A stretch of 64,000 nt of DNA. It comes from an uncultured Lachnospiraceae bacterium. GTDB taxonomy: Bacteria > Bacillota > Clostridia > Lachnospirales > Lachnospiraceae. Under the pieces are notes generated by a model. The model had not been told where the DNA came from. It ran no database searches and saw nothing but the letters and a program-made list of their open reading frames with translations. This document shows, one piece after another, positions 15,622 through 38,063 of the stretch; the stretch's first letter is position 1; the number at the start of each line of letters is the position of its first letter. The stretch covers positions 129 to 64,128 of the forward strand of contig CADBRV010000052.1 in NCBI GenBank assembly GCA_902797185.1, given 5' to 3'. Position numbers and translations under genes: made by a program.

Positions 15622-17127
15622 TCATACCCTCCTGAGGTTTGTATAACCCATCAGGTATTCATCTACATCATGCGCGCACTGCCTGCCTTCGGCAATGGCC
15701 CATACCACCAGGCTCTGCCCCCGGTGCATGTCGCCCGCGGCAAAGACTTTCGGGATATTGGTGGCAAAAGCGCCATCCCCCGTCTCCACCGTGCCCCGGC
15801 CTGTCAGCTGTACGCCAAAGGCCTCCGGCGTATATTTCTGTGCCCCGATAAAGCCTGCCGCGATCAAAAGCAGCTCGCATTTCAGCGTCTTCTCGCTGCC
15901 CGGCACTTCCACCATCTTGCCGTTTTCAAAATGGACCTTGACGGTGACCACCTCCCGGAGCGCACCTTTCTTTGTGGTGTGCAGCTCTTTGATGGTGGTT
16001 TCATAAACCCTGGGGTCCTTGCCGAATACGGCAATGGCTTCTTCATGGCCGTAGTCTGTCTTTTTGACGTTGGGCCATTCCGGCCAGGGGTTGGAAGCTG
16101 CCCTCTCTTCCGGAGGCGCCGGCATCATTTCCAGCGCGGTCACGGATTTGCATCCATGGCGGATCACGGTGCCGATGCAGTCATTGCCGGTATCGCCGCC
16201 GCCGACGATCACCACGTTTTTGCCCTTGGCACTGATGAAATCCTTCTGTGCCAGGAGGTCTTCCGCCCTGCGGTTTTTGTCGGTGTGGTCCAGGAGGCTC
16301 TTCGTAGTCTGGGACAGGAAGTCCACCGCGTAGTAAACGCCCGGTACCTGCTGGGGGTCAGCCCCGGCCAGGGGCCTAGGCTCCTTCGCGCCGCAGCACA
16401 AAACCACCGCGTCATATTCCTTCAAAAGCTCGTCTGCTGTAATGTCCACGCCCACGTTTACGCCGGTACGGAAGGTGACGCCTTCCTTTTCCATGAGCCT
16501 GCGGCGCCTCGCGATGACCTTTTTGTCCAGCTTCATGTTGGGGATGCCGTACATCAAAAGGCCTCCGATCCGGTCGTCCCGCTCAAACACGGTGACGTTA
16601 TGGCCCCTGTGGTTCAGCTCGTCTGCCACTGCCAGCCCGCTGGGCCCGCTGCCTACTACGGCAATCTTCTTGTCGCTGCGCACCTGCGGGATGTAAGGCT
16701 TGATATAGCCATTTTTGAAAGCGTTCTCAATCAGGAAATATTCATTCTCATGGATGGTGACAGGGTCTCCATATTCCCCGTTGATGCAGGCTTTCTCGCA
16801 GAGGGCCGGACATACACGCCCGGTAAACTCCGGGAAGTTGTTGGTCTTGTCCAGCCTGGAAAACGCGTGCCGGAAATTGCCATGGTAAATCTGGTCGTTC
16901 CATTCCGGGGCCAGGTTGTGCAGCGGGCACCCGGTCACCCTTCCCTTGAGCACCATGGCGGACTGGCAGAACGGCACGCCGCAGTCCATGCAGCGGGCCG
17001 CCTGCTGGCGCCTCTCCTTTTCCGGGATCTGGCGGTGGAATTCCAGGAAGTTCCTGATCCGGTCCTGCGGGGCAGTGATTTTATTGTCTTTTCTGGCATA
17101 CTCCAGAAATCCGGTTGGTTTGCCCAT
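15622..17127 (-). CDS. gltD: Glutamate synthase (NADPH) small subunit
   Basis: N-terminal Fe-S Cys cluster (CMDCGVPFC), a dinucleotide fold VAVVGSGPSGLA and a second fold VVIVGGGDTGNDC. Confidence 0.9.
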   Translation of the reverse strand: MGKPTGFLEYARKDNKITAPQDRIRNFLEFHRQIPEKERRQQAARCMDCGVPFCQSAMVLKGRVTGCPLHNLAPEWNDQIYHGNFRHAFSRLDKTNNFPEFTGRVCPALCEKACINGEYGDPVTIHENEYFLIENAFKNGYIKPYIPQVRSDKKIAVVGSGPSGLAVADELNHRGHNVTVFERDDRIGGLLMYGIPNMKLDKKVIARRRRLMEKEGVTFRTGVNVGVDITADELLKEYDAVVLCCGAKEPRPLAGADPQQVPGVYYAVDFLSQTTKSLLDHTDKNRRAEDLLAQKDFISAKGKNVVIVGGGDTGNDCIGTVIRHGCKSVTALEMMPAPPEERAASNPWPEWPNVKKTDYGHEEAIAVFGKDPRVYETTIKELHTTKKGALREVVTVKVHFENGKMVEVPGSEKTLKCELLLIAAGFIGAQKYTPEAFGVQLTGRGTVETGDGAFATNIPKVFAAGDMHRGQSLVVWAIAEGRQCAHDVDEYLMGYTNLRRV

Positions 17128-20100
17128 TATCCTGCTACCTCCTCAAACGCTTCGTAAACGGCATTTTCATGGGAAATGCCCTGCTCCTCGTACTTGCTGA
17201 TAGCAGTCAGCATCTTCTGGTAACCTTCCGGCACGATCTTCTTGAAGTCCGGAATGTAGTCATTAAAGTGTGCCAGGATTTCTTTTCCTCTCGTGGAATT
17301 CGTCTCTTTGACATAATCCTTCAGGATGTCCTTGAGCTCCGCGATATCGTATTTGTCGGTCAGGTCATGCAGGCAGTCCAGTTCGGTATTCATGTGGCGG
17401 TAAAGCACATGGTCCGTATCCAGCACATAAGCGATGCCGCCGCTCATGCCTGCCGCGAAGTTCTTGCCGGTCGGTCCTAAGATTACCGCACGTCCGCCGG
17501 TCATGTACTCCAGCCCATGGTCGCCGCATCCTTCCGCTACCGCCGTAGCCCCGGAGTTGCGGACCATGAAACGCTCGCCGGCAATGCCTGCCGCGTAAAT
17601 CTTGCCTTCCGTAGCGCCATATCCGGCTACGTTGCCGATAATGATGTTCTTGCTCGGGTCAAAAGGCGATCCCTCCGGCGCTGTCACAACCAGCTTGCCG
17701 CCGGAAAGGCCTTTGCCGAAGCCGTCATTGGCATCCCCCACCAGGCGGATCGTAAGCCCCTGCGGGATGAACGCCCCGAAGGACTGGCCGCCGCCGCCCT
17801 GGGCATGGATGACGAAGGTATCCTCATCCAGCGTGTTGCCAAAGTGCCTGGTGATTTCGGATCCCAGGATCGTGCCAAAAGCACGGTCGGTACTGCAGAC
17901 CTTGACGGAGGTTTCGTGGCTTGCCTCTTCTTTTCCATCGATGGCATCCTGAAATGCCGGAAGCAGCGTGGAAAGGTCCAGCGTCTTTTCCAGATGGAAG
18001 TCATGCACATGTGCCGGGTCGAAGCAGCTGTCCTTGGCTCCTGCATAGGTGGTATCCAGGATCGCGTCCAAAACCAGCTTCTTGGAGCGGTCCGTCATCT
18101 GTTTCTCGCGGACCTTCAGGCAGTCTGTCCTGCCCACCATCTCGCTGACGCTGCGGAATCCCAGCTGTGCCATGATTTCCCGCAGCTGCTGCGCGATATA
18201 ACGCATAAAGCGGATGACATATTCCGGCTTGCCGCGGAAACGGGAACGGAGCTCTTTATTCTGGGTGGCGATGCCCACCGGGCAGGTATCCTTGGAACAG
18301 ACACGCATCATCATGCAGCCCATGCATACCAAAGGTGCCGTGGCAAAGCCGAATTCTTCCGCCCCCAAAAGTGCCGCGATGGCAACGTCCCTGCCGCTCA
18401 TGAGCTTGCCATCGGTCTCAATGGCAACCCTGTTGCGCAGGCCGTTTTCCACCAGGCTGCGGTGTGCTTCCGAAACGCCCAGCTCCCAGGGAAGCCCTGC
18501 CGAATGGATGGAACTCCTGGGCGCGGCGCCGGTGCCGCCGTCAAATCCGGAAATCAGGATGACCTGCGCGCCGGCCTTGGCAACGCCGCTGGCGACTGTG
18601 CCAACCCCTGCCTCGGAAACCAGCTTGACAGAAATCCTCGCGTCCCGGTTTGCGTTCTTCAAATCATAGATTAACTGCGCCAGATCCTCGATGGAATAAA
18701 TATCGTGATGTGGCGGAGGGGAAATCAGGGATACGCCCGGCGTGGAGAACCGGGTATCCGCTACCCACGGGTAAACCTTCTTGCCAGGCAGATGGCCGCC
18801 TTCGCCGGGCTTTGCGCCCTGGGCCATCTTGATCTGGATCTCCACCGCGCTGTTCAGGTAAGCGCTGGTAACGCCGAAACGCCCGCTGGCCACCTGTTTG
18901 ATGGCGCTGTTATAAATCGTGCCATAACGGGACGCGCTCTCGCCGCCCTCGCCGGTATTGGATTTTCCTCCGATGCGGTTCATGGCCTCTGCCAGAGTCT
19001 CATGGGCTTCCATGGAAATAGAGCCATAGCTCATAGCGCCGGTCTTAAACCGTTTCACGATGGAATCGACGGATTCTACTTCCTCAATCGGCACAGGCTC
19101 TCCTGCCGGTACAAAGTCCATCAGCCCGCGGAGGGTATGGGGTTTGCCCGGGTCGTCCACCATGTTGGTATACTGGCGGAACAGTTTTTCGTCCCCGGTG
19201 CGTACCGCCTGCTGCAGGGTTACGATGACTTCCGGAGAATACAGGTGGTCTTCCTTGTCCCTGCCGCTGCGGAGGTAGTGGTAGCCGGTGGAATCCAAAG
19301 CGGTATCCACGCCAAGCCCTAACGGGTCGAAAGCATGGTCATGGCGCCATGTGACGCCGTCCGCGATTTCCTTAAGGCCGATGCCGCCAACCCTGCTGGG
19401 GATGCCGGTAAAGTATTCGTCCACCAGTTCCTTGCTAAGGCCCACCGCCTCGAAAATACGGGCGGACTGGTAAGACTGGATGGTGGAAATGCCCATCTTG
19501 GCGGCAACTTTTACGACGCCGCTGAGCAGGGCCGAGTTGTAATCATCGATTGCCGTATGGTAATCCTTGTCCAGGATGCCCCTGTCGATCATCTCCGCGA
19601 TGCTCTCATGGGCAAGGTACGGGTTGATGGCCCGGGCACCGAAACCAAGCAGGGTGGCTACCTGGTGCACGTCCCTGGGCTCGCCGCTTTCCAGGATCAG
19701 GGAAACGGCCGTCCTCTTCTTGGTCCTTACCAGGTGCTGCTCTACAGAGGAGACAGCCAGGAGGGAAGGGATCGGTACATGGTTTTCATCCACGTCACGG
19801 TCGGACAGGATGATGATATTTTTGCCATTAGCGTAAGCACGGTCCACCGCGATATTCAGCTGGTCCAGCGCACGCTTCAGGGAAGTATTCTTAAAATACA
19901 GGATGGACACGGTCTGGGGATGGAAGCCGTCCCGGTCCAGAGCCTTGATCTTCATCAAATCTACGCCGGTAAGGATCGGCTGGTTTACCTCCAGCACACG
20001 GCAGTTGCGGTTGGTTTCCTGCAGCAGGTTGCCATCGGAACCGATATAAACCGTGGTATCCGTTACAATTTTTTCCCTTAGGGAGTCAATCGGCGGGTTT

Positions 20101-21647
20101 GTAACCTGCGCGAAGAGCTGGTGGAAATACCTAAACAGCGGCTGGTGGTGCTCTGCCAGTACGGCCAGCGGGATGTCATGCCCCATGGAAGCCGTGGGCT
20201 CGGAACCATTTTCCGCCATCGGGAGGATCGTATCCTTTACATCTTCATAGGTATAGCCGAATACCTTGTAAAGGCGGTCCCTCATTTCCTGGCTGTTGAC
20301 CGGGATCTTGTGGTTCGGGATCGGCAGCTCCTTGAGCTGCAGGATGTTGCGGTTGAGCCACTCGCCATAAGGCTGCCTGGTGGCGTAGCGCATCTTGCAT
20401 TCTTCATCGGAGATAATCTTTTTCTGTTTGGTATCAACCAGGAGCATGCGGCCCGGCTCCAGCCTGGACTTTTTGATGACCTGGTCTGCCGGGATATCCA
20501 GCACGCCGACTTCGGAAGCCAGAATCAGCCGCCCGTCTTTGGTCAGGTAATACCTGGAAGGGCGCAGGCCGTTACGGTCAAGGGTGGCACCCAGGATATC
20601 TCCATCAGAGAAGATCAGGGCTGCCGGCCCGTCCCATGGCTCCATCATGGTGGCGTAATAATGGTAGAAATCTTTCTTTTCCCTGGACATGGCGTCATCA
20701 TGCTTCCACGGCTCCGGGATCACTGCCATCATGGCAAGGGGCAGTTCCATCCCGCTCATATAAAGGAATTCGATGGTATTGTCCAGCATGGCGGTATCAG
20801 AGCCTTTGGCGCTGATGACCGGATAGATCTTGTCTAAATCTTTCTCCAGGTAGGGGGAGTTCATGGTTTCTTCCCTGGCAAGCATACGGTCCACGTTGCC
20901 GCGGATGGTATTGATCTCGCCGTTATGTGCCAGCATCCTGTAGGGGTGCGCACGGTCCCAGGACGGGAACGTGTTGGTGGAAAACCTGGAGTGGACGACT
21001 GCGATGGCGGTCTTATAAGACCTGCTCTGCAGGTCCTCGTAGAACTTACGAAGCTGCCCTACCAGAAACATGCCCTTGTAGACAATGGTCCTGGAAGACA
21101 TGGAAACGATGTACGCGTCTTCCGCGCTCTGCTCGAACTCGCGGCGGACGACATACAAACGGCGGTCGAAATCAATGCCTTTTTCGCATTCTTCCGGACG
21201 CTCAAAGAAGCACTGCATGATGTGGGGCATACACTCCACTGCCTTTTCGCCCAGGATTTCCGGATGGACCGGCACTTCCCTCCAGCCGAGGAATTTCAGC
21301 CCTTCCTTTTCCGCGATGACCTTCAGCATACGCTTGAGCATCATGCATTTCATTTCATCCTGCGGCATAAAGCACATGCCAATGCCATAGTCTCCGGCTT
21401 CTTTAAGCTCTATGCCGGCTTCTTTTGCTGCCGGCTTGAAAAAATCGTGGCTGATCTGGAGCAGGATGCCGACGCCGTCACCAACTTTGCCGCTGGCGTC
21501 TTTGCCGGCACGGTGCTCCAGCTTTTCCACGATATGTAATGCATCATCCAGCACGTGGTAATCCTGGTGCCCGTCAATGTTGACGATGGCGCCGATCCCG
21601 CATGCGTCATGATCCATATGGCTGTATGGCCTTTCGTTTTGATTCAT
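17127..21647 (-). CDS. gltB: Glutamate synthase large subunit
   Basis: 1506 aa. Contains the Ntn amidotransferase start (DACGIGAIV), FMN/3Fe-4S central domains and a C-terminal GXGXG beta-helix domain. Confidence 0.95.
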   Translation of the reverse strand: MNQNERPYSHMDHDACGIGAIVNIDGHQDYHVLDDALHIVEKLEHRAGKDASGKVGDGVGILLQISHDFFKPAAKEAGIELKEAGDYGIGMCFMPQDEMKCMMLKRMLKVIAEKEGLKFLGWREVPVHPEILGEKAVECMPHIMQCFFERPEECEKGIDFDRRLYVVRREFEQSAEDAYIVSMSSRTIVYKGMFLVGQLRKFYEDLQSRSYKTAIAVVHSRFSTNTFPSWDRAHPYRMLAHNGEINTIRGNVDRMLAREETMNSPYLEKDLDKIYPVISAKGSDTAMLDNTIEFLYMSGMELPLAMMAVIPEPWKHDDAMSREKKDFYHYYATMMEPWDGPAALIFSDGDILGATLDRNGLRPSRYYLTKDGRLILASEVGVLDIPADQVIKKSRLEPGRMLLVDTKQKKIISDEECKMRYATRQPYGEWLNRNILQLKELPIPNHKIPVNSQEMRDRLYKVFGYTYEDVKDTILPMAENGSEPTASMGHDIPLAVLAEHHQPLFRYFHQLFAQVTNPPIDSLREKIVTDTTVYIGSDGNLLQETNRNCRVLEVNQPILTGVDLMKIKALDRDGFHPQTVSILYFKNTSLKRALDQLNIAVDRAYANGKNIIILSDRDVDENHVPIPSLLAVSSVEQHLVRTKKRTAVSLILESGEPRDVHQVATLLGFGARAINPYLAHESIAEMIDRGILDKDYHTAIDDYNSALLSGVVKVAAKMGISTIQSYQSARIFEAVGLSKELVDEYFTGIPSRVGGIGLKEIADGVTWRHDHAFDPLGLGVDTALDSTGYHYLRSGRDKEDHLYSPEVIVTLQQAVRTGDEKLFRQYTNMVDDPGKPHTLRGLMDFVPAGEPVPIEEVESVDSIVKRFKTGAMSYGSISMEAHETLAEAMNRIGGKSNTGEGGESASRYGTIYNSAIKQVASGRFGVTSAYLNSAVEIQIKMAQGAKPGEGGHLPGKKVYPWVADTRFSTPGVSLISPPPHHDIYSIEDLAQLIYDLKNANRDARISVKLVSEAGVGTVASGVAKAGAQVILISGFDGGTGAAPRSSIHSAGLPWELGVSEAHRSLVENGLRNRVAIETDGKLMSGRDVAIAALLGAEEFGFATAPLVCMGCMMMRVCSKDTCPVGIATQNKELRSRFRGKPEYVIRFMRYIAQQLREIMAQLGFRSVSEMVGRTDCLKVREKQMTDRSKKLVLDAILDTTYAGAKDSCFDPAHVHDFHLEKTLDLSTLLPAFQDAIDGKEEASHETSVKVCSTDRAFGTILGSEITRHFGNTLDEDTFVIHAQGGGGQSFGAFIPQGLTIRLVGDANDGFGKGLSGGKLVVTAPEGSPFDPSKNIIIGNVAGYGATEGKIYAAGIAGERFMVRNSGATAVAEGCGDHGLEYMTGGRAVILGPTGKNFAAGMSGGIAYVLDTDHVLYRHMNTELDCLHDLTDKYDIAELKDILKDYVKETNSTRGKEILAHFNDYIPDFKKIVPEGYQKMLTAISKYEEQGISHENAVYEAFEEVAG

Positions 21648-21668: not shown

Positions 21669-21803
21669 GCGATCCTTGCGATGCACTAGCCGCATCGTCC
21701 CATGTCATCACCCGAAGGGTGGTGACGCATGCCACGCCCTCACGCGAAGCGTGATCTTTCATGGCGTGGCTTTCCTTAAGGACGATTTGGAATGCGGCGT
21801 CTG
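21669..21803 (-). repeat. Modular hairpin-forming intergenic element, copy 1 (long form), in the gltB 5' leader
   Basis: Shares GCCGCATTCCAAATCGTCC...GGACGATGCGGCTAGTGCATCGCAAGG with copies at 38064-38220 and 26537-26614. Contains nested hairpins GCCACGCC/GGCGTGGC, TCACGC/GCGTGA and GTCACCACCC-ttcg-GGGTGATGAC. Confidence 0.6.
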
Positions 21804-21944
21804 CCCTTGTCCCTTGGGGTGCCTCGGGACCAGCTGCTTAGGCTTTTCAAGAGAGGGATACTAAGGGGACGTAATCAATAATATCTAGTACCTCTCTTCC
21901 GCAAAGCACAAATGGCCAAGGCCACCGGTCTTGACCGTTGGGCT

Positions 21945-24261: not shown

Positions 24262-26508
24262 TCAGAGAAAGGTCAGGCAATCCGGCTGCCAGGAAAGGAC
24301 CCGCCGTTTCATGCCTTCGATATCCAGCACGCCAAAGGCAAAGCCTTTGCGCACCAGCTCCTGCGGGACATATTCGTCATACTTGTCAAACAGGGGGACT
24401 TCCTTCGGATAAAGAAGCTCCATGGGGTCAAAATCCTTTACCGCCTCTTCCGCGGTAATCCGGTAAAAAGCATCCTCGTCCGCCTGCATCGTAAACATCA
24501 GGTAATACGGCCTGGTGGAGCTGAAGCCTTTGAGCCCCAGCCTGCTGCCGCAGCGGATTTTCAAAAACCGCTCCAGCGCGAGGAAGGCATAGCTGCCGAG
24601 CCAGGGAAAAAGCACCCACATCTTCCCGCCCAGTGGGATCAGCGGGCGCCCTTCCATCCCCGCTTTTTCAAAGGTGCCGCGGGCTTCCTGCAGCCTGGCG
24701 GCTGCGTGGGGCATCAGGTAAGGGTATGCCTTTTTTTCCGAAAGCACGCCATGCATCCGTTCCAGGATCCGGGTATGGATATCCCCGGCCTCGTCCCCGA
24801 AATAAGCGGGGACCTTGCCCTTCACCAGGGTGCAGTAGACTTCCTTCCTCTTGTGGTCCACTTCGTCCACTGCCCAGGCCCGCCCCGCGATGGCGATCTT
24901 TTCCCCGATGGGAGGCGGGTTCACGATGGTGCCCAGTTCTTCGGAGCCCGCATGGACTTTATATTCCACATTCTCCTTGAACACCGCGTAAAACTTGTAA
25001 TTGTTGACAACCCGCTCGCCCGTAAGCCCCAGGATGAGGCCGTCGTTTTCCGTCCGGTTGATATGGTCCGTCTCCAGAAGGTGCCGCAGCAGGATACGGA
25101 AATCATCCTGCGTGATCCTCCGGAAAGCCGGCAGCGGCAGAACCCGGGATGCCAGCTCCGCCGGCGTCATTTCCCCTTGGGATGCCAGCGTGCTCATCGT
25201 CTGGTGGTAAAGCAGGGAAAAAGGCAGTTTCCGGGTCCTGGGCGGCTCCACGAAACGCTCTTCCAGGTAAAGCTGCACCAGGGCGATCCCCTGGACCAGG
25301 TACCACGGGATCAGCTCCGGCAGCATCGCCCTGGCCTCGGGATGGTCCTCCCGCATCACAAACCACATCTCGGAAGGCTCGCCCCGGCGGCCGGTCCTCC
25401 CCATCCTCTGCAGGAAACCGGAAACCGTGAACGGGGCGTCGATCTGGAACGCCCGCTCCAGCTTCCCAATATCGATCCCCAGCTCCAAAGTGGCTGTAGC
25501 GCAGACGCTCATCAGGGAATCGTCGTCCTTCATTTCCTCTTCGGCGCTTTCCCGGTAAGAGGTGGAGAGGTTGCCATGGTGGATCAAGAAACGGTCCGGC
25601 TCATGGTTTGCCTCGCAGTACTGCCGCAAAGTCTGGCACACCGCCTCGCACTCTTCCCTGGAATTGGTGAAAACCAGGCATTTCTTTTCCCGGGTATGCT
25701 CAAAGATATAGCCGCAGCCCGGGTCTGCCGTCTTGGGTGCATGATCGGTAGGCTCTTCCGTCACCGGAGGCTGGATCAAAGCGTCTTTCCCTTCATCCGC
25801 CTGGGGATTGCTGTTAAAAAAGTGCTCCATGGACAGGCGCCAGACTTCTTTTTCCCCTTCGAATTTCGGGATAATGGTCCCCCGTCCGCTTCCGGCAGCC
25901 AGGAATTTCCCCGCCTCTTCCGGATGGCCGATGGTGGCGGTAAGGCCGATCCTCCTGGGGTGGCAGCCTGCCGTCTGGCTGAGCCTCTGGATCAGGCAGA
26001 AAACCTGCCCTCCCCGGTCCGCCCGGAGCAGGGAATGGACCTCGTCAATGACGATAAACCGAAGGTCCCCGAACAGGCTCGGGATCTCCATATGCTTGTT
26101 TATCATCAGGGCTTCTAAGGATTCCGGCGTGATCTGCAGGATCCCGGAGGGCTTTTTCAAAAGCTTTTTCTTCTGGGACTGGGACGCGTCGCCATGCCAT
26201 TTGGTAACCCGGATGTCCGTATCCTCGCAAAGCTCCATGAGCCTTCCATACTGGTCATTGATCAGGGCTTTCAGCGGCGCGATATAAAGGACCCCTACCG
26301 ATTTTGGCGGGTCTTCCTCCAGCAAAGTCAGGATCGGGAAGAAAGCCGCCTCCGTCTTGCCGGAAGCCGTGGATGCCGTAAGGAGCACATTTTCATCCGT
26401 ATTAAAAATGGCATCCCCTGCCGCGTTCTGGACCGCCCGAAGGTCCCTCCAGCCGGAGCGGAAAATATAATCCTGTATAAAAGGCGCGTACCGGTTAAAA
26501 ATATCCAT
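24262..26508 (-). CDS. DEAD/DEAH-box (Lhr-like) superfamily-2 helicase; SngC-like component of a Shango-type cassette
   Basis: Motif I ASTASGKTEA, motif II VIDEVHSL, motif III TATIG and motif VI QRMGRTGRR, plus a ~300-aa uncharacterised C-terminal region. Confidence 0.8.
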   Translation of the reverse strand: MDIFNRYAPFIQDYIFRSGWRDLRAVQNAAGDAIFNTDENVLLTASTASGKTEAAFFPILTLLEEDPPKSVGVLYIAPLKALINDQYGRLMELCEDTDIRVTKWHGDASQSQKKKLLKKPSGILQITPESLEALMINKHMEIPSLFGDLRFIVIDEVHSLLRADRGGQVFCLIQRLSQTAGCHPRRIGLTATIGHPEEAGKFLAAGSGRGTIIPKFEGEKEVWRLSMEHFFNSNPQADEGKDALIQPPVTEEPTDHAPKTADPGCGYIFEHTREKKCLVFTNSREECEAVCQTLRQYCEANHEPDRFLIHHGNLSTSYRESAEEEMKDDDSLMSVCATATLELGIDIGKLERAFQIDAPFTVSGFLQRMGRTGRRGEPSEMWFVMREDHPEARAMLPELIPWYLVQGIALVQLYLEERFVEPPRTRKLPFSLLYHQTMSTLASQGEMTPAELASRVLPLPAFRRITQDDFRILLRHLLETDHINRTENDGLILGLTGERVVNNYKFYAVFKENVEYKVHAGSEELGTIVNPPPIGEKIAIAGRAWAVDEVDHKRKEVYCTLVKGKVPAYFGDEAGDIHTRILERMHGVLSEKKAYPYLMPHAAARLQEARGTFEKAGMEGRPLIPLGGKMWVLFPWLGSYAFLALERFLKIRCGSRLGLKGFSSTRPYYLMFTMQADEDAFYRITAEEAVKDFDPMELLYPKEVPLFDKYDEYVPQELVRKGFAFGVLDIEGMKRRVLSWQPDCLTFL

Positions 26509-26536
26509 GAACTGATTTTCCTTCCTGCCCTTCTAA

Positions 26537-26614
26537 ACGCCGCATTCCAAATCGTTCTTCGTACGATGTGGCTAGTACATCGCAAAGAATCCTCCCGCCG
26601 GCGCGGGTCCCTCC
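26537..26614 (+). repeat. Modular intergenic element, copy 3 (short form, inverted orientation), between the ATPase and helicase genes
   Basis: Plus strand: GCCGCATTCCAAATCGT-tcttcgt-ACGATGTGGCTAGTACATCGCAAAGAATCCTCCCGCcggcGCGGG. It lacks the two internal hairpin modules found in copies 1 and 2. Confidence 0.6.
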
Positions 26615-26634
26615 TGGAGAGTCCATCCTCTCCG

Positions 26635-27966
26635 TCAGATCGTAAACTCGGCGTAGTTATCATCTGCTTTATCCGAAACAGCTTCCGACTTCGCGTAGGA
26701 AAACTGGTCCGACTCCAAAAGCTGCGCCGGGGTCATGGACGGGTTCTGGTACAGCAAGTCCAAAAGCTCGATAAAATCCCGGTTTACCTCTCGGGGCGTG
26801 ATGTTCTGGTCCGCCCCGATCCGTTCATATTCGATCCGGATAAAAGAAGCCAGGTCCCGGGTCGTGATTTTCTTTTCATAACCATATAAGCCCGCATGCA
26901 TATCCGCCAGCTTCTCGCACAGCACCAGCATCTCGTCCACTGTCAGCGGATCCAGCCGGATCACCGGCGCCAAAAGGTCCCTGGCCCCGGGCTTTGAGAA
27001 CTTCCCTTCCGCCAGGCGGGAGCGCAGCGCCTCATAGCTGTAAATGCCCCGCCTTTTGTCTTCCAGCGCCTGGGGCGTAGCGCCCATGATGATGCCCAGG
27101 TACTTTGCCTTGCCCTGGAGAGTATCGTTGTACATCATCAGCATCTTTTCGTAATTGTACTGCCGGGTGATGGCGTTGGGGATCTTGGAAATATTCACCA
27201 GCTCATCGAGCATGACCATCATGCCCGCATAGCCCGCCAGCCGGAAAAATACGGCAAACAGCTTAAGATAGTCATACCAGTCATCATCAGAAATAATGAT
27301 ATTGACCCCCAGCTCCGCTTTTGCCTCGCTTTTTAGGGTGTATTCCCCGCGGAACCATTTTGTTACTTTCGCCTTGGCCTCGTCGTCCCCTTCGATGTAA
27401 GCGTGGTAATACATGGAAAGGAGCTTCGCGAACTCAAACCCATGGACCAGCTCGCTGACCGCCGAAGTGACCGCGTAAATCTTCTGGTCCACCAAAGCGG
27501 TCAGTGCCGGATCCCCCGGCGCAAGCCCGCTTTCCGCAACGGCAGAGCCCTGCACGCTGCTGATCCAGCGGTCCAGCACCAAAGACAGCGCGCCGCCCTC
27601 CGGCTTTGTCTTCGTGGACAAATTGCCAATCAGCTCACGATAGGTGGCAAGCCCCTGCCCTTTGCTGCCCTGCAGCCGCCTTTCCGGGGAAAGGTCGGCA
27701 TCCACGACAATAAACCCCCGGTCCATGACGTAATTGCGGATCGTCTGCAGCAGGAAGCTTTTGCCTGCCCCATACCGTCCAACCACAAACCGGAAAGAAG
27801 CGCCGCCCTCTGAAATGATATCCACATCGTGCAAAAGGGCTTCCATTTCATTTTTCCTGCCTACGGTTATATAAGGCAGGCCGATCCGGGGGACGACACC
27901 GCCTTTTAAAGAATTGATGATTGTCTGGGCAATCCGCCTTGGTACCTTTTTCCTGGTTTCTCCCAT
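26635..27966 (-). CDS. DUF2791 / BrxC-BrxD-type P-loop ATPase; SngB-like
   Basis: Walker A GRYGAGKSF and Walker B MVMLDELV. Length and layout match my recollection of the DUF2791 family. Its start codon lies 4 nt downstream of the stop of the TerB gene. Confidence 0.65.
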   Translation of the reverse strand: MGETRKKVPRRIAQTIINSLKGGVVPRIGLPYITVGRKNEMEALLHDVDIISEGGASFRFVVGRYGAGKSFLLQTIRNYVMDRGFIVVDADLSPERRLQGSKGQGLATYRELIGNLSTKTKPEGGALSLVLDRWISSVQGSAVAESGLAPGDPALTALVDQKIYAVTSAVSELVHGFEFAKLLSMYYHAYIEGDDEAKAKVTKWFRGEYTLKSEAKAELGVNIIISDDDWYDYLKLFAVFFRLAGYAGMMVMLDELVNISKIPNAITRQYNYEKMLMMYNDTLQGKAKYLGIIMGATPQALEDKRRGIYSYEALRSRLAEGKFSKPGARDLLAPVIRLDPLTVDEMLVLCEKLADMHAGLYGYEKKITTRDLASFIRIEYERIGADQNITPREVNRDFIELLDLLYQNPSMTPAQLLESDQFSYAKSEAVSDKADDNYAEFTI

Positions 27967-27969
27967 CTG

Positions 27970-31665: not shown

Positions 31666-34600
31666 TTACTGCACCGTGACGGTGATCTTCGCCTTCGCAT
31701 TTTCCCATTTGTCTGTACCGGTCTTTACCTTGGATGCTGGGATCTTGATGTAAACCACTTCGCCTTCTCCGGAATCCACCTGCTCGGAATTGAATGTGCC
31801 CTTGGCGGTAAAGATCTTCCCATTGTCACCCGTCATGGACAGCCGGAAATCGGAATACCTTACTGTAGAGGACGTGCCGTTTGCCAGCCAGATGCCGGCC
31901 ATGACGCTTCCGTCATCCTGCTGCCATGCAAAGACAGGCTTGGCGCTGGCCGTACCACTGTAATAATCCTCCGAATTATTGTAGTAATAGACATCATCGC
32001 TTAAAAGCGCCGCATTCCTTCCGTCTTCCTTTGCCTGTAAATAATCCTCGGAATAGAAGGAGCTGTCTGTGCTGGTGTAATTGTCCACTTCTTCCTGCTT
32101 CGACGGGTCGATCTTCCACTCGCCGCCTTCTTCCACCAGCGGGAGCAGGAATGCCGAATCGGATACGGTCTTTCCGGGTGCCGGGCCGGATACGCTGTAG
32201 TAATCCAGGTTCAGGCCATAAACACCGTTTCCTTCATAAACGATCTTGGCGTTGTCATTCGCATACTGGGAAAGGTCCGCAGCCGCAAAAGCGTCCGCAT
32301 ATTTCTGGACCGTCGCATCATCCGTCCCCGATACAAACAGGGAAGAATAATCTGCCGCATCCGAAGATGCCAGCCCTGCGATTTCTTCTGCCACGTCATT
32401 TGCTGCCTCCTGGGCAGTCTTGGTAGAGGTACTGCCAGCCGGAATCAGGCTGCGCCCTAAAGTCAAAAACAGGATCAATGCAGCTGCCACCGCCGTGCAA
32501 AGCACGATCCAGAAGGACGCCCTCCGATGAAGAGGCTTTTCTTCCTCCTCGTCTTCCAGCATATCCACTTCCTGTTTTTCCTGGTTCTGATCCGCAAAGA
32601 AGCTGTTCTCTTCTTCCTCGTCCGGAGTCTCCGTAAAAGCAGGCAGGTCGTAATCATCCACCAGCTCTCTTGCAGGCTGTGTGGGTTCTTCCGTCTCAGG
32701 CTGGACGCCTTCTTCGGATTCCTGCGGAATGCTTTCCTCCGTTTCCTGCGGAGTGCCTTCCTCGGATTCCTGTGAAACGTCCTTCTCGGTTTCAGGAAGA
32801 ACATCCTCCGACGCAGGTGCTTCCTGATCGGATTCAGGAGCTTCCTCTGTGGTTTCTTCTGCCCCAGGTTCAGAAACTTCTTCTGTAGTTTCTTCTACCG
32901 GAACCTCTTCTGTTTCCGGTTCGGAAACTTCTTCTACAGATTCTTGTTCCTGAGCCTCTTCCGTTTCCTGTTCAGAGGATTCTACTACTGGCTCCTCGGT
33001 CGGTTCTTCCACCGGCTCTGGCTCAGTTGTTTCTTCCATCTGTTCCTCAGCAGCCGATTCTTCTTCATTCTCAGTTTCAGGAGCTTCCTCTTCTGCTGGC
33101 TCTTCAACTTCTGGTTCGGAGGATTCTTCTACCGTCTCTTCGACCGATTCTTCCGCTGGCTCTGGCTCAGAGGTTTCTTCTACCGATGCTTCCTCCGGTT
33201 TCTCTTCTTCACTTTCAGTTTCAGGAACTTCGTCACTTGTTTCCTCAACCTCAGGTTCAGGCTCTTCTGCAGTCTCTTCCGGTTCGGATGGCTCCTCGAT
33301 CGGTTCTTCCACCGGCGTCGATCCAGATGTTTCTTCTACCTCTTCCGGTTCGGCGTTTTCCTCTACCGGTTCCTCTTTACCTTCGCTTTCAGAAGCTTCC
33401 TCTTCCGTTGCCTCTTCAACCTCAGGCTCAGAATCCTCTTCTACAGATTCTTCTTCCGGAGTCTCTTCTGTTTCCGATTCAGAGGATTTTTCTACCGGCT
33501 CCTCTGCTGGCTTTTCTTCTTCCTTCTCGGTCTCAGGAGCTTCCGCTTTCTCTTCAGGGGCATCCGCCTCTTCCTTTTCAGAAGTTTTTTCTTCCGTGAC
33601 AGAAGCCTTCGCTTCCTTCTCCAGGAATCGAACTTCTCCCGCAAGGGCATCCTTATCAAAATCTGCTTCAGAGGCAGGTACTGCCCACGGGGTCTTCCCG
33701 CCAAGCTCTACACCCGAGCCAACTTCCAGTATTGTCACCTGTTCGGCGGCACCTTCATAAGAAGGCACATCTGCTGCCTGGATAATATCCGGAAGCTCCT
33801 CCTGGCCTTCCGCAGCCTGTTCCTGGAAACCATCTTCTTCTGCTCCTGGTTCCACAGCCCCTGGTTCCGGTTCGTCAGCCTCAGATTCCGATCCGGCTGA
33901 TTCCGCAGGAGTTCCGGCATCATTTCCGAATTCTGATCCGCTTCCAGGTTCACCGCTGTCTTCTCCCGGTACGTGTTCCCCTGTTTCAGATGCAGTTTCA
34001 TCCGTATCCGGGAACAGGTCGATCATCTCCAGGCCATCGTCTGCATTTTCTTCCGTTGATCCGGAAGCACTGCCAGACGCTGCCGCATCCTCTGATGCCT
34101 CTGTCTCACTGCCAGGCTCTGACGCATCCTCCAGTGCCCCTGGCTCGCTGCCGGACGCTGCCGCATTTTCTGAATCTTCCAGCGCTTTCCCGGCATCTCC
34201 CGATGCCTGGGCTTCTCCCGCACCTTCCGCGCTTTCCTCCACGTCTCCGGAGCCGGAAGCGCCGGCTTTTGCAGCCTCTTCTTCTTGGAAAATACGCTCC
34301 AGGACCGCCGTATTTTCTTCTGTCGCGGCCAAAAAGGCCTTGTCCAGCTTCTTCTTCCGCTCTTCCGGTGGGGTCGTCCTGGCCTTGTAATGCTTATAGC
34401 TTTCTTCCGCGTCGGCAGGCGCACTCTTCCGCTCCATCTCTGCCGCTTTTTTCAATAACGCGTAAAACCAGGTAATGGTAGGAAGCCCATACAAATCTGC
34501 CCCATGCTTTTCCAGTTCCAGCACAGCCGCTTTCACATGCTTCTTGGCATAGGTAACCTGCATATGTGCTTCATCCTGGGAAATGCCGAACATGTCCCCG

Positions 34601-35091
34601 ATTTTCGAAAAGGAATAGCCCTCTTGGCGCAGGCGGATGCAGGACGCCTGGATACCGGGAATGTCATAAAAAATATAAGCAAGTACCTGGAACAGGTCCT
34701 TTTTCTTTAAATCAATACGGGAAAGGATGGCCTTTTCATTCGAAACGACCCTCCTGCTGGCTTCGTCTTTCGAAGTCACTTCCGGAAGGGCGGGGTCATC
34801 CATCACCCTGCCTGCTTCCTTCCACTGGTTGAGCTTTAGGCAGGTGGTCTCGGCTTTCTGCCTGGCCCAGTCATCAAACTGGTAGGTATCAGGAATCGCG
34901 CTGGTATCGGAGAAGATCTGGTCAAAGATTTCCTGTTCCAGGAAGGAAGCCTTGCTTTCATCGTACCCGCAGTGGCACAGTGCCGCTTCATGGACCATCG
35001 GATACAGTTTCTCATAGAGAATCTGTTCCGACCCTTCCTTGCCTTGTTTCAGATCGTCTATATATGAGCTCCAGTCAAAAGTTGTCCTCAT
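31666..35091 (-). CDS. 1141-aa membrane protein: sigma-70-like N-terminal domain, ~600-aa acidic low-complexity linker, one TM helix, extracytoplasmic C-terminal domain
   Basis: Region-4-like HTH LRQEGYSFSKIGDMFGISQDEAHMQVTYAKKHV. E/P/S/T-rich repeats (EEPxEE, SEPE) span roughly aa 240-845. The TM helix is ASFWIVLCTAVAAALILFLTLG. The C-terminal ~270 aa are paralogous to the next gene. Confidence 0.6.
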   Translation of the reverse strand: MRTTFDWSSYIDDLKQGKEGSEQILYEKLYPMVHEAALCHCGYDESKASFLEQEIFDQIFSDTSAIPDTYQFDDWARQKAETTCLKLNQWKEAGRVMDDPALPEVTSKDEASRRVVSNEKAILSRIDLKKKDLFQVLAYIFYDIPGIQASCIRLRQEGYSFSKIGDMFGISQDEAHMQVTYAKKHVKAAVLELEKHGADLYGLPTITWFYALLKKAAEMERKSAPADAEESYKHYKARTTPPEERKKKLDKAFLAATEENTAVLERIFQEEEAAKAGASGSGDVEESAEGAGEAQASGDAGKALEDSENAAASGSEPGALEDASEPGSETEASEDAAASGSASGSTEENADDGLEMIDLFPDTDETASETGEHVPGEDSGEPGSGSEFGNDAGTPAESAGSESEADEPEPGAVEPGAEEDGFQEQAAEGQEELPDIIQAADVPSYEGAAEQVTILEVGSGVELGGKTPWAVPASEADFDKDALAGEVRFLEKEAKASVTEEKTSEKEEADAPEEKAEAPETEKEEEKPAEEPVEKSSESETEETPEEESVEEDSEPEVEEATEEEASESEGKEEPVEENAEPEEVEETSGSTPVEEPIEEPSEPEETAEEPEPEVEETSDEVPETESEEEKPEEASVEETSEPEPAEESVEETVEESSEPEVEEPAEEEAPETENEEESAAEEQMEETTEPEPVEEPTEEPVVESSEQETEEAQEQESVEEVSEPETEEVPVEETTEEVSEPGAEETTEEAPESDQEAPASEDVLPETEKDVSQESEEGTPQETEESIPQESEEGVQPETEEPTQPARELVDDYDLPAFTETPDEEEENSFFADQNQEKQEVDMLEDEEEEKPLHRRASFWIVLCTAVAAALILFLTLGRSLIPAGSTSTKTAQEAANDVAEEIAGLASSDAADYSSLFVSGTDDATVQKYADAFAAADLSQYANDNAKIVYEGNGVYGLNLDYYSVSGPAPGKTVSDSAFLLPLVEEGGEWKIDPSKQEEVDNYTSTDSSFYSEDYLQAKEDGRNAALLSDDVYYYNNSEDYYSGTASAKPVFAWQQDDGSVMAGIWLANGTSSTVRYSDFRLSMTGDNGKIFTAKGTFNSEQVDSGEGEVVYIKIPASKVKTGTDKWENAKAKITVTVQ

Positions 35092-36847: not shown

Positions 36848-37966
36848 TTAAAGCTCCTGCCTTGCTGCCGACAGCGCGGCAGCCACCACCTGGTCCATGT
36901 CATAATACTTATATTCCCCAAGCCTGCCGCCAAAACGGACTTTGCCCGCCGTCTGTTCCGCAAGCTCCTGGTATTTCTGAAACAAGGTGCCGTTCTTCTC
37001 ATCGTTGACCGGATAGTACGGCTCCTGGCCCGGTTTCCACTCGGAAGAATATTCCCTGGAAATCACGGTCTTCGGAAGGTCATTGCCCTCCTCGTCTTTC
37101 CCGAACTCAAACCATTTGTGCTCGATGATCCTGGTCCAGGGCGTCTCCCGGTCCGTGTAATTGACGGCGGCATTGCCCTGGAAATTGGGCGTGTCCAGCA
37201 CCTGGGTGTCAAACCGCACGGAGCGATATTCCAGGTGCCCCAGGCAGCACCCGAAGAACGAGTCGATAGGGCCTGTATAAATGACCCTCTCCGCCAGCCT
37301 GTCAAAGCCTTCCCGGTCTTCCAGGTAATCCTCGCCCAGCTTTACTTCGATACCATCCATAAGGCGCTCCACCAGTTTGGTATAACCTCCGATGGGGATC
37401 CCCTGATACAGCGCGTTAAAATAATTATTGTCAAAAGTAAAGCGCACCGGAAGCCTCTTGATAATAAAGGCAGGCAGGTCCTTGCAGTCCCTTCCCCATT
37501 GCTTTTCCGTATAGCCCTTTACCAGCTTTTCATAGATATCGGTCCCCACAAGGGAAATCGCCTGCTCCTCCAGATTTTTCGGATTGGTAATGCCGGCGGC
37601 TTTCCTCTGCTCTTCAATCTTTTCCTTTGCCTGCTGCGGCGTCACCACGCCCCACATCCGGTTGAAGGTGTACATGTTAAATGGCAGGGAATAAAGCTCC
37701 CCTTTGTAATTTGCCACCGGGCTGTTGGTAAAACGGTTGAAGCGGACAAACTGGTTTAAATAGTTCCAAACTTCTTCGTTATTGGTATGGAAAATATGGG
37801 CCCCATATTTGTGGACATGGATGCCTTCGATATCCTCCGTATAGACATTGCCGGCAATATGCGGGCGCCGTTCGATGACCAGCACCTTTTTCCCAGCCTT
37901 TTTTGCTTCCTGGGCGAACACTGCCCCGTAAAGACCGCTGCCAACAATCAGATAGTCGTATTTCAT
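36848..37966 (-). CDS. glf: UDP-galactopyranose mutase
   Basis: MKYDYLIVGSGLYGAVFA FAD-binding fold and full-length resemblance to Glf (372 aa). Confidence 0.9.
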   Translation of the reverse strand: MKYDYLIVGSGLYGAVFAQEAKKAGKKVLVIERRPHIAGNVYTEDIEGIHVHKYGAHIFHTNNEEVWNYLNQFVRFNRFTNSPVANYKGELYSLPFNMYTFNRMWGVVTPQQAKEKIEEQRKAAGITNPKNLEEQAISLVGTDIYEKLVKGYTEKQWGRDCKDLPAFIIKRLPVRFTFDNNYFNALYQGIPIGGYTKLVERLMDGIEVKLGEDYLEDREGFDRLAERVIYTGPIDSFFGCCLGHLEYRSVRFDTQVLDTPNFQGNAAVNYTDRETPWTRIIEHKWFEFGKDEEGNDLPKTVISREYSSEWKPGQEPYYPVNDEKNGTLFQKYQELAEQTAGKVRFGGRLGEYKYYDMDQVVAAALSAARQEL

Positions 37967-38054: not shown

Positions 38055-38063
38055 TTATCGTAA

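What the first reader, a model, noticed from the sequence alone, without database searches (positions are those of the whole stretch)
21669..21803. Conserved modular structured element in the gltB leader (family of three copies in this window)
The mRNA strand reads GCCGCATTCCAAATCGTCC - hairpin A (GCCACGCC...TCACGC-ttc-GCGTGA...GGCGTGGC) - hairpin B (GTCACCACCC-ttcg-GGGTGATGAC) - GGACGATGCGGC-TAGTGCATCGCAAGG. The two ends can pair (GCCGC/GCGGC and ATCGTCC/GGACGAT) to close a multi-helix junction. Alternatively the 3' end folds on itself (CGATGC-ggctagt-GCATCG). That mutually exclusive architecture is riboswitch-like. Near-identical ends recur at 38064-38220 and 26537-26614. I cannot match the element to any RNA family from memory.
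Basis: seen in the sequence. Interest (0 to 1): 0.7.

Follow-up and report, generated by a model that had tools for sequence, protein, structure and literature searches.

The report
Dispersed mosaic hairpin repeat, not riboswitch
The "gltB leader element" is one copy of a short, hairpin-rich DNA repeat scattered through the non-coding gaps of an uncultured rumen Lachnospiraceae genome, in both orientations and next to unrelated genes. It is an ordinary small interspersed repeat of a new sequence family, not a gltB riboswitch.

Summary
All three copies are at the stated coordinates, with shared end blocks, against 0.14 matches expected by chance. The riboswitch reading does not hold.

I extended the locus on a 174-kb ENA contig. 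That gave 8 copies or fragments in about 85 kb, all intergenic and in both orientations. Their neighbours are unrelated: gltB, glf, a defence-like ATPase/helicase pair, metQ, a Cna_B gene, a Ser/Thr kinase, an MFS transporter and a LysR regulator.

The copies are mosaics of five modules:
- L, the 5' block
- hairpin A
- hairpin B
- R, the 3' block with a small hairpin
- T, a GC hairpin ending TTACGATA

The combinations seen are L-A-B-R, L-A-B-R-T, L-R-T (twice), L-A-B', R-T, T alone and A alone.

Further points against a riboswitch:
- The two closest relatives with sequence (GltB 78-79% identical) lack the element between glnN and gltB.
- Rfam has no match.
- Both strands fold equally well, and wobble mismatches show no strand bias (6 versus 6).
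- Between strains the element varies at least as much as its flanks.
- Two short-read contigs break inside copies.

It is best filed as a new family of composite small interspersed repeats, like BOX, BIME or ERIC. It has no terminal inverted repeats, so it is not a canonical MITE. How it spreads is unknown.

The parts
21673..21807 (-). Copy c1, module order L-A-B-R with no T module. It lies in the glnN-gltB spacer and ends 25 nt upstream of the gltB ATG (21647).
   Evidence: Sequence; word matches; fold; nhmmer E = 1e-41.
21780..21807 (-). c1 L module (5' block AGGGCAGACGCCGCATTCCAAATCGTCC). It holds the 5' arms of the end-closing helices P1 (GCCGC) and P2 (ATCGTCC), separated by a 7-nt bulge.
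21731..21770 (-). c1 hairpin A: outer stem GCCACGCC/GGCGTGGC, asymmetric internal loop ATGAAAGA/G, inner stem TCACGC-TTC-GCGTGA.
   Evidence: Across 6 copies 92.9% of cells are paired, and 4 pairs change on both sides.
21704..21726 (-). c1 hairpin B: GTCACCACCC-TTC-GGGTGATGAC. In c2 the inner stem has a different sequence (TCGCC/GGCGA) but still pairs.
21673..21700 (-). c1 R module: GGACGATGCGGC (3' arms of P2 and P1), overlapping the local hairpin CGATGC-GGCTAGT-GCATCG, then CAAGGA.
   Evidence: Copy c3 carries the compensatory change C:G to T:A in this hairpin.
38054..38225 (-). Copy c2, the full form L-A-B-R-T. It lies in the divergent spacer between glf (36848..37966 '-') and a DUF2207 gene (38354..40384 '+'). 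A TATAAT-like box lies between the element and glf.
   Evidence: nhmmer E = 9e-45.
38054..38089 (-). c2 T module: ATCCTCCCGC-TGAA-GCGGGCTCCTCC-TTACGATAAA. The same module occurs in c3, c5, c6 and c7.
   Evidence: (I1).
26535..26615 (+). Copy c3, short form L-R-T, with hairpins A and B replaced by a TTC loop. It is antisense to both flanking '-' genes, a BrxC/D-like ATPase (26635..27966) and a DEAD helicase (24262..26508).
6081..6147 (-). Fragment c8: a lone A module (GCCATGCC-ATGATGA-TGCGCG-ATTTG-CGCGCA-G-GGCACGGC) in the metI-metQ spacer. The inner stem sequence is fully replaced but still pairs. This is the weakest call in the window.
   Evidence: nhmmer E = 4.8e-4; sequence; pair counts.

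Best explanation
The element is one copy of a previously undescribed family of composite (mosaic) small interspersed repeats in an uncultured rumen Lachnospiraceae. It is built from five short modules, most of them hairpins: L, A, B, R and T.

Copies were spread through intergenic DNA by a non-autonomous process that works at the DNA level. They have since decayed, been truncated, or lost and gained modules at the apex of the L:R palindrome.

The copy upstream of gltB is there by accident of insertion into the glnN-gltB spacer. It is most likely co-transcribed as a stable, passive stem-loop cluster. At most it alters mRNA stability, processing or read-through, as BOX, ERIC and BIME elements do. 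It is not a ligand- or signal-sensing switch.

Shown: multiplicity, mosaic structure, intergenic restriction, mixed orientation, absence from relatives, lack of strand bias.

Inferred: mobility, the way it spreads, co-transcription, and any effect on gltB.
For: 1. Multiplicity and dispersal. There are 3 copies in the window plus a lone A module at 6081-6147. Extending along ENA contig ERZ1029112:k87_48076996 found four more:
- c4, L054:13468-13566, L-A-B', truncated at its 3' end
- c5, L057:5330-5393, R-T
- c6, L057:7870-7963, a degenerate L-R-T
- c7, L057:9806-9843, T only

That makes 8 in about 85 kb. All are intergenic, although only about 15% of the window is intergenic.

2. No consistent gene class or orientation. 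Neighbours are gltB, glf/DUF2207, a BrxC/D-like ATPase with a DEAD helicase, metQ, Cna_B, a Ser/Thr kinase, an MFS transporter and LysR. c3 and c5 are antisense to both neighbours. c4 lies between convergent genes.

3. Mosaic and truncated forms are what composite repeats look like (definitions in PMC3049150).

4. The glnN-gltB spacers of the two nearest relatives with sequence (GltB 78-79% identical) are 108 and 485 nt long and hold no trace of the element (nhmmer).

5. No Rfam match at gathering or E-value thresholds.

6. The structure is not strand-specific. The antisense strand folds at -61.2 kcal/mol (z = -3.8) against -58.5 (z = -3.4) for the sense strand. Across all helices and copies there are 6 G:T mismatches and 6 A:C mismatches.

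7. No sign of extra constraint. Between near-identical strains c2 has 6 differences in 161 nt and its flanks 4 in 240 nt. c1 carries a 4-nt insertion inside hairpin A in another sample.

8. Two independent short-read contigs end inside copies: L049 in hairpin B of c1, and L058 at CCTTACGATA of c6. That is the usual signature of a multi-copy repeat in an assembly.
Against: - No genome-wide count was possible. Only about 85 kb of this organism could be read.
- No empty site was found, so mobility is inferred and not shown.
- No target-site duplication and no terminal inverted repeats are evident. No transposase or RAYT-like gene was seen in the DNA held.
- Hairpins keep pairing through real double substitutions: A:T to G:C in hairpin A, C:G to T:A in the R hairpin, and wholesale stem replacement in hairpin B and in c8. 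Something therefore selects for the hairpins. That could be an RNA-level function and need not be a DNA-level requirement for spread.
- c1 and c2 both happen to be sense and upstream of a gene.
Confidence: 0.8

Rival explanations
1. One reading: a riboswitch-like cis-regulatory RNA in the gltB leader. It would toggle between the closed junction (L:R pairing) and the local R hairpin to control gltB, with paralogous copies controlling other genes.
For: The two mutually exclusive pairings exist in c1. c1 and c2 are sense and upstream of genes. The R hairpin carries a compensatory change in c3. gltB lies in a nitrogen-assimilation cluster where leader regulation is expected.
Against: - Copies sit next to unrelated genes in both orientations, and one lies between convergent genes.
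- Truncated and single-module copies exist.
- The element is absent from the same junction in the nearest relatives.
- There is no terminator after the R hairpin and the Shine-Dalgarno sequence is not sequestered.
- In c2 the P1 helix carries a C:A mismatch.
- The antisense strand folds equally well and there is no wobble strand bias.
- The element is no better conserved between strains than its flanks.
- In c2 and c6 a TATAAT-like box lies between the element and the gene, so the element is probably upstream of the promoter there.
Confidence: 0.03
2. A canonical MITE: a deletion derivative of an insertion sequence, moved by cut-and-paste by that element's transposase, with terminal inverted repeats and target-site duplications.
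For: It is short (80-170 nt), multi-copy, intergenic and highly base-paired, with variable internal content between conserved ends. These features are shared with MITEs as listed in PMC3049150.
Against: - The inverted segments (GCCGCAT..CGTCC and GGACGATGCGGC) are internal, not terminal. Conserved sequence extends beyond them on both sides: ATGGACAG/AGGGCAG at the 5' end, and the rest of R plus T (TAGTGCATCGCAAGGA...TTACGATA) at the 3' end. Those outer ends are not inverted repeats of each other.
- No direct repeat flanks the 4-5 informative ends.
- The element is not AT-rich: 53-58% GC against 53.5% for the window.
- No transposase gene appears in the gene lists of the extension loci or the ten window ORFs scanned.
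Confidence: 0.1
3. A family of functional structured RNA modules, either domesticated repeats or a modular RNA-protein recognition element. They would be transcribed with neighbouring genes and selected for hairpin A, B and R structure, for example as RNase processing or stabiliser sites. c1 would then uncouple glnN from gltBD expression.
For: Pairing is kept through double substitutions and whole-stem swaps. Hairpin A keeps a conserved asymmetric internal loop, ATGA(A/T)GA, even in the divergent c8. Precedent: BOX, ERIC, BIME and Correia elements affect the expression of co-transcribed genes (PMC3049150).
Against: - Mixed orientation relative to transcription.
- Equal numbers of G:T and A:C mismatches, so no RNA-strand signature.
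- Decayed and truncated copies.
- Variation between strains, including a 4-nt insertion in hairpin A.
- No expression data.
Confidence: 0.06
4. A small protein gene or an sRNA gene family. One reading is the open frame MKDHASREG...DDAASASQG, preceded by AAGGAG. The other is a set of independently transcribed sibling sRNAs.
For: One frame is open through both c1 and c2 and has a Shine-Dalgarno-like AAGGA(G/A)A 9-10 nt upstream of an ATG. The T module carries C-rich CCUCC motifs.
Against: - Strain variants destroy the frame: a 4-nt insertion in c1, and ATG changed to AGG in c2.
- The short forms lack the ORF altogether.
- A six-frame protein query found nothing among 5.8 billion proteins.
- No shared promoter lies upstream of the copies and no U-tract terminator follows them.
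Confidence: 0.01

Closest known systems
BOX elements of Streptococcus pneumoniae (boxA-boxB(n)-boxC composite repeats)
   Same: - Firmicute host.
- Composite and modular: conserved end modules pair with each other, and internal hairpin modules can be absent or present without disturbing the end pairing.
- About 70 to over 200 nt, intergenic, in either orientation.
- Lone modules occur.
- Restricted to one species cluster and absent from relatives.
(Comparison based on PMC3049150.)
   Different: - No sequence relationship is claimed or was tested.
- BOX elements are reported to have terminal inverted repeats and target-site duplications. Here I found no terminal inverted repeats and no duplication.
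- Internal modules here are two distinct hairpins (A and B), not a tandem array of one unit.
- An extra 3' R/T extension lies outside the palindrome.
BIME/REP (bacterial interspersed mosaic elements) and NIME of Proteobacteria
   Same: Mosaics of short GC-rich palindromic units and linkers in variable combinations. They are strictly extragenic and can act on co-transcribed mRNA (and general knowledge).
   Different: - Different phylum and no sequence similarity.
- REPs are 20-40-nt units, often in tandem inverted pairs, linked to RAYT transposases. No RAYT was seen here, though only about 85 kb was examined.
- The present element has a fixed module order (L-A-B-R-T), not alternating unit types.
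ERIC/IRU (enterobacterial repetitive intergenic consensus, 127 bp)
   Same: A long imperfect palindrome found in transcribed intergenic regions. It exists as short forms and as long forms that differ by internal insertions or deletions at defined sites (my own knowledge). The L-R-T versus L-A-B-R-T forms here differ exactly at the apex of the L:R palindrome.
   Different: Different host and sequence. ERIC is a 'simple' repeat. Here modules also occur alone (T only, A only, R-T).
MITEs (e.g. RUP, Correia elements)
   Same: Size, copy multiplicity, intergenic location, strong secondary structure.
   Different: No terminal inverted repeats, no detectable target-site duplication, not AT-rich, and no cognate insertion sequence identified (see the membership test).
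Riboswitches and leader attenuators
   Same: A multi-helix junction and a pair of mutually exclusive helices upstream of a metabolic gene.
   Different: - No conserved placement or orientation, and no regulon.
- No expression platform.
- Not conserved in relatives.
- No strand-specific structure signal.
- No Rfam family.

Membership tests
Small interspersed repeat, composite type (as defined in PMC3049150) | [quoted passage not shown] | tested here: met
   8 copies or fragments of 38-172 nt across about 85 kb.
Small interspersed repeat, composite type (as defined in PMC3049150) | [quoted passage not shown] | tested here: met
   Modules L, A, B, R and T keep a fixed order but occur in variable combinations: L-A-B-R, L-A-B-R-T, L-R-T (twice), L-A-B', R-T, T and A.
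Small interspersed repeat, composite type (as defined in PMC3049150) | High copy number genome-wide | not testable with these tools
   Only about 85 kb of the organism was reachable. The local density of about 1 per 10 kb, and two contigs breaking inside copies, suggest many copies. That is extrapolation.
MITE | Terminal inverted repeats | tested here: not met
   The inverted segments are internal. The outermost conserved ends (ATGGACAG.../AGGGCAG... and ...TTACGATA) are not complementary.
MITE | Target-site duplication flanking the insertion | tested here: inconclusive
   No common direct repeat appears in the flanks of c1-c7. Too few complete ends were available and no empty site was found.
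MITE | AT-rich relative to the host genome | tested here: not met
   The element is 53-58% GC against 53.5% for the window.
MITE | Highly base-paired secondary structure | tested here: met
   z = -3.4 (sense RNA), -3.8 (antisense RNA) and -3.1 (DNA parameters).
MITE | Ends shared with an insertion sequence or transposase in the same genome | not testable with these tools
   No transposase appears in the gene lists of the extension loci or the ten window ORFs scanned. The whole genome was not available.
Riboswitch / cis-regulatory leader RNA | Consistent sense placement in 5' UTRs of functionally related genes | tested here: not met
   Unrelated neighbours, 2 copies antisense to both flanking genes, and 1 between convergent genes.
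Riboswitch / cis-regulatory leader RNA | Conservation at the orthologous position in related species | tested here: not met
   Absent from the glnN-gltB spacer in L050 and L051, whose GltB is 78-79% identical. No closer species exists in the databases.
Riboswitch / cis-regulatory leader RNA | Expression platform: a terminator, or ribosome-binding-site sequestration coupled to the alternative fold | tested here: not met
   No U-tract follows the R hairpin. The Shine-Dalgarno sequence (AAAGGAAAG) is unpaired in both folds.
Riboswitch / cis-regulatory leader RNA | Strand-specific covariation (G:U tolerated, A:C not) | tested here: not met
   6 G:T and 6 A:C mismatches across all helices and copies. 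The antisense strand folds equally well.
Riboswitch / cis-regulatory leader RNA | Match to a curated RNA family | tested here: not met
   No Rfam 15 hit at gathering thresholds in the whole window. Only noise at E-values of 10 or below at the three sites.
ANTAR antiterminator target (considered because an ANTAR regulator is in the same gene cluster) | Two small hairpins with hexaloops (A at position 1, G at position 4), the second overlapping a terminator (recalled from memory) | tested here: not met
   The loops in c1 are TTC, TTC and GGCTAGT, and there is no terminator. A motif of the expected kind is present instead in the amtB leader.
BOX element (S. pneumoniae) | Sequence homology to boxA, boxB or boxC | not tested
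   No BOX reference sequences or models were at hand. The resemblance is architectural only.
REP/BIME | A 20-40-nt palindromic unit linked to a RAYT (Y1 transposase) gene | not testable with these tools
   No RAYT appears in the gene lists of the extension loci or the ten window ORFs scanned. The whole genome was not available.

The most novel reading that the evidence does not exclude
The hairpin modules may be under selection for structure because they do something. Pairing survives whole-stem sequence replacement in hairpin B and in the lone A module. Two functions are conceivable:
- ssDNA hairpin signals for a Firmicute transposition system that does not use terminal inverted repeats (RAYT/Y1-like or IS110-like) and has not been linked to such repeats in Lachnospiraceae.
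- A domesticated, portable RNA module whose competing L:R and R pairings modulate processing or translation of the downstream cistron. In that case the gltB copy would tune glnN versus gltBD expression.
Probability: 0.1. Interest if true: 0.5.

Novelty: new member of a known kind. Interest (0 to 1): 0.22.

Why it matters
The main value is as a corrected annotation. A striking multi-helix "leader" upstream of a central nitrogen-assimilation gene would invite a riboswitch claim. It is a dispersed repeat.

The family itself is undescribed. It has no match in Rfam, GTDB species representatives, JGI metagenomes, IMG/VR, plasmids or phages. It comes from an uncultured rumen Lachnospiraceae, a group in which I know of little work on small interspersed repeats.

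It has three practical consequences:
- It breaks short-read metagenome assemblies.
- It can seed false ncRNA or small-ORF predictions.
- It may perturb the expression of genes it is co-transcribed with, such as gltB.

Its lack of terminal inverted repeats leaves the mobilising machinery an open, modest question.

Tried and rejected
1. Exact-word scan of 185,579 GTDB species genomes with CGCCGCATTCCAAATCGT gave 40 hits. All were chance or coding matches and none carried the 3' block.

2. JGI metagenome scan with ACGCCGCATTCCAAATCGTYC gave 2 chance hits.

3. IMG/VR scans with the 5' and 3' blocks gave 5 chance hits and 0 hits.

4. blastn of c2 against PLSDB plasmids and INPHARED phages gave no match.

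5. I queried the 5.8-billion-protein collection with a concatenated six-frame translation of the three copies, hoping that spurious ORF calls over other copies would lead to their contigs. Nothing scored at E-values of 10 or below. This cost one protein search for no gain.

6. Small-ORF reading (MKDHASREG...): rejected because a strain has a frameshift and another has lost the start codon.

7. Looking up window-edge proteins using the longest-ORF start codons failed. Alternative starts checked through the listing of cluster members worked and allowed me to walk about 17 kb left and 3.5 kb right along a 174-kb contig.

8. Search for an empty site in other strains: every available strain is at least 98% identical in its proteins and carries the copies.

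9. Hammerhead and K-turn resemblances in hairpins A and B were checked by eye and dropped. The motifs are absent in c2 and Rfam gives no hit.

10. A 13-nt match at 13241-13253 lies inside the purF-like coding sequence and is chance.

11. A weak nhmmer hit inside a 105-aa ORF (L059:18457-18500) was left unresolved.

Full report
**Observation**

- a 5' block, AGGGCAGAC-GCCGCATTCCAAATCGTCC
- hairpin A: GCCACGCC / ATGAAAGA / TCACGC-TTC-GCGTGA / G / GGCGTGGC
- hairpin B: GTCACCACCC-TTC-GGGTGATGAC
- a 3' block, GGACGATGCGGC-TAGT-GCATCG-CAAGGA

The element ends 25 nt before the ATG of a 1506-aa ORF (17127..21647 '-'). That ORF is a glutamate synthase large subunit: it carries the four GltB Pfam domains and has thousands of homologues.

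The 18-mer of the 5' block occurs three times in the window against 0.14 expected by chance, and the 3' block recurs at the same three places. The predicted fold is the closed multi-helix junction (-58.5 kcal/mol, z = -3.4). The competing local hairpin CGATGC-GGCTAGT-GCATCG is also there.

**What the three window copies already show**

I aligned the copies by hand, because MAFFT mis-registers the short copy. The family is modular:
- c1 (21673-21807 '-') is L-A-B-R.
- c2 (38054-38225 '-') is L-A-B-R plus a further module T, ATCCTCCCGC-TGAA-GCGGGCTCCTCC-TTACGATAAA.
- c3 (26535-26615 '+') is L-R-T, with a TTC loop in place of hairpins A and B.

c3 is on the opposite strand. It is antisense to both neighbours, a BrxC/D-like ATPase and a DEAD-box helicase that follow a TerB_N/TerB_C gene. 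c2 sits in the divergent spacer between glf (UDP-galactopyranose mutase) and a DUF2207 gene, and a TATAAT box lies between it and glf. Three copies beside three unrelated gene sets, one of them antisense, already argues against a dedicated leader RNA.

**Identity of the organism and distribution of the family**

The nearest GltB homologues other than the organism itself are only 79% identical. They are labelled Lachnospiraceae, Eubacterium or Butyrivibrio, and the samples include the Stewart rumen MAG set. Exact-word scans found only chance or coding matches in:
- 185,579 GTDB species genomes
- JGI metagenomes
- IMG/VR

blastn against plasmids and phages found nothing at all. Rfam 15 gives no hit at gathering thresholds anywhere in the window, and only noise at E-values of 10 or below at the three sites. 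The family is therefore undescribed and, as far as these scans reach, confined to this lineage.

**Relatives lack it at the gltB junction**

In this organism the gene order is glnN (type III glutamine synthetase) - c1 - gltB - gltD - amtB/glnK - purF-like - pyrG - glnA - ANTAR response regulator. In the two nearest relatives for which DNA was fetched, glnN is also directly upstream of gltB. Their spacers are 108 nt and 485 nt long and contain nothing related to the element (nhmmer).

**More copies outside the window**

Exact-protein look-ups placed the window on a 174,048-bp ENA contig, ERZ1029112:k87_48076996. Walking about 17 kb to the left and 3.5 kb to the right gave four more members:
- c4, L054:13468-13566: L, hairpin A and the first half of hairpin B, then a break. 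It lies between convergent genes, just before their shared terminator.
- c5, L057:5330-5393: R-T only, antisense to both flanking genes (a Ser/Thr kinase and an old-yellow-enzyme-type oxidoreductase).
- c6, L057:7870-7963: a degenerate short L-R-T form in a divergent spacer.
- c7, L057:9806-9843: T only, upstream of a LysR gene.

A module-level nhmmer search also found a lone A module in the window at 6081-6147 '-', in the metI-metQ spacer (E = 4.8e-4). Its outer stem and internal loop are recognisably the same. Its inner stem has a completely different sequence that still pairs.

In total there are 8 copies or fragments in about 85 kb, and all are intergenic. About 15% of the window is intergenic, and 4 of its 28 gaps hold a copy. 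In same-direction gene pairs, three copies are sense (c1, c7, c8) and two antisense (c3, c5).

Two independently assembled short-read contigs end inside copies. L049 starts in the loop of c1 hairpin B. L058 starts at CCTTACGATA of c6. That is what multi-copy repeats do to de Bruijn assemblies.

**Structure: real, but not strand-specific**

Hairpin A pairs in 92.9% of cells across six sequences, and four pairs change on both sides. The R hairpin carries a C:G to T:A double change in c3. Hairpin B in c2 has three of its five inner pairs replaced. Hairpins are therefore maintained.

The signature expected of an RNA is missing, however. Over all helices and copies there are 6 G:T mismatches (tolerated if the element strand is RNA) and 6 A:C mismatches (tolerated only on the other strand). 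The antisense strand of c1 folds slightly better than the sense strand (-61.2 kcal/mol, z = -3.8). DNA parameters also give a significant fold.

The "mutually exclusive" pairing follows from simple sequence repetition. The 3' arm of the R hairpin (GCATCG) repeats the GCAT..CG of the L block, so both compete for the same CGATGC segment. No terminator follows either fold and neither sequesters the ribosome-binding site.

**Variation between strains**

Other samples carry the same insertions in nearly identical strains (proteins at least 98% identical). In L052, c1 has a 4-nt insertion inside the inner stem of hairpin A plus a C-to-T change. In L053, c2 has 6 differences in 161 nt against 4 in 240 nt of flanking spacer. 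The element is therefore not more constrained than its surroundings.

These variants also dispose of an open reading frame that runs through c1 and c2 (MKDHASREG...). The insertion shifts the frame, and the putative ATG is AGG in L053.

**Interpretation**

The element is a composite, or mosaic, small interspersed repeat in the sense used for BOX, BIME and NIME elements (PMC3049150). It is a fixed-order set of short modules. An outer imperfect palindrome (L:R) can carry extra hairpins (A, B) at its apex, much like the long and short forms of ERIC. An R/T tail lies outside the palindrome.

It is not a canonical MITE:
- The inverted segments are internal, and the true ends (ATGGACAG or AGGGCAG on one side, TTACGATA on the other) are not complementary.
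- No flanking duplication is visible.
- It is not AT-rich.
- No transposase appears in the gene lists of the extension loci or the ten window ORFs scanned.

My working model is that copies were spread by a process acting in trans that recognises DNA hairpins and does not rely on terminal inverted repeats, and that they then decayed or were truncated. This is inference. No empty site or mobilising gene was found.

For gltB, the most likely situation is that c1 is carried passively in the glnN-gltB intercistronic or leader RNA. The regulated step of the operon more plausibly lies at the glnN leader, which has a strong leader terminator (24105-24142 '-'). The amtB leader has an ANTAR-style hairpin and terminator arrangement.

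**Limits**

Only about 85 kb of the organism could be examined. The local density of about one copy per 10 kb cannot safely be extrapolated to the genome. Mobility, co-transcription and any effect on expression are untested. The lone A module (c8) and a possible fragment inside an ORF (L059:18457-18500) are the weakest calls.

**Verdict**

The modular and family parts of the interpretation are right, and the riboswitch part is not supported. This is a new sequence family of a well-known kind of element, and its interest is low to moderate.

Noticed in passing
window 15395-15560 '-' (amtB/glnK leader); ANTAR regulator gene at window 8281-8883 '-': A small hairpin ACAGC-AAUGGG-GCUGU has a hexaloop with A at position 1 and G at position 4. 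Its 3' arm overlaps the 5' arm of a long terminator, GGGCUGUGAAAGG...CCUUUCAUAGCCC-UUUUCU, and a second small hairpin precedes it. This looks like an ANTAR-type antitermination leader. It fits the ANTAR response regulator encoded next to glnA in the same nitrogen-assimilation cluster.
   Followed up: partly
window 24105-24142 '-' (glnN leader): A strong 17-bp terminator-like hairpin with a U-tract lies inside the leader of the type III glutamine synthetase gene. This suggests attenuation control of a glnN-gltBD unit.
   Followed up: partly
window 24262-30159 '-': Three genes in a row: a TerB_N/TerB_C protein, a BrxC/D-like AAA ATPase and a DEAD/DEAH helicase. This is a defence-like cluster, and repeat copy c3 is inserted antisense between the ATPase and the helicase.
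   Followed up: partly
window 4938-5047: A tandem duplication of a 55-nt unit (75% identical) lies immediately downstream of the metQ-like lipoprotein gene (family D14).
   Followed up: no
window 59728-59803: Two adjacent 37-nt direct repeats, 97% identical, each contain an inverted repeat (CACAGTTTGTGC / GCACAAAC). They lie between the glycyl-radical enzyme gene and an ABC_ATPase gene and look like an operator (family D17).
   Followed up: no
window 40398-40517: About five tandem copies of a 24-nt unit (ACGGCAGGCAGAAAGTATCACCCC-like) start just after the end of the DUF2207 gene (family D6).
   Followed up: no
window 32800-33600 '-' (inside the 1141-aa ORF 31666..35091, which has no Pfam hit): Extensive in-frame 144-nt and 51-nt repeats (families D1, D3, D8) suggest a repetitive surface or low-complexity protein.
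   Followed up: no
L057:9717-9790: A long, near-perfect palindrome (GCATATGCGTAAAAGGGCTTTGGAAAAGC ... GCTTTTCCAAAGCCCTTTTACGCATATGC) lies directly upstream of repeat fragment c7.
   Followed up: no
L059:18457-18500 '-': There is a possible fragment of hairpin A/B (nhmmer E = 7.5e-5) inside the 3' end of a 105-aa ORF. That ORF's C-terminus looks unlike the carboxymuconolactone-decarboxylase-type proteins its N-terminal part resembles (my own reading from memory; no domain search was run). It could be a repeat-derived C-terminus or chance.
   Followed up: partly
window 13272-13575 '-' (purF-like leader): A terminator after amtB is followed by a TATAAT-type promoter and a roughly 130-nt leader with several hairpins before the amidophosphoribosyltransferase-like gene. 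No Rfam hit.
   Followed up: no
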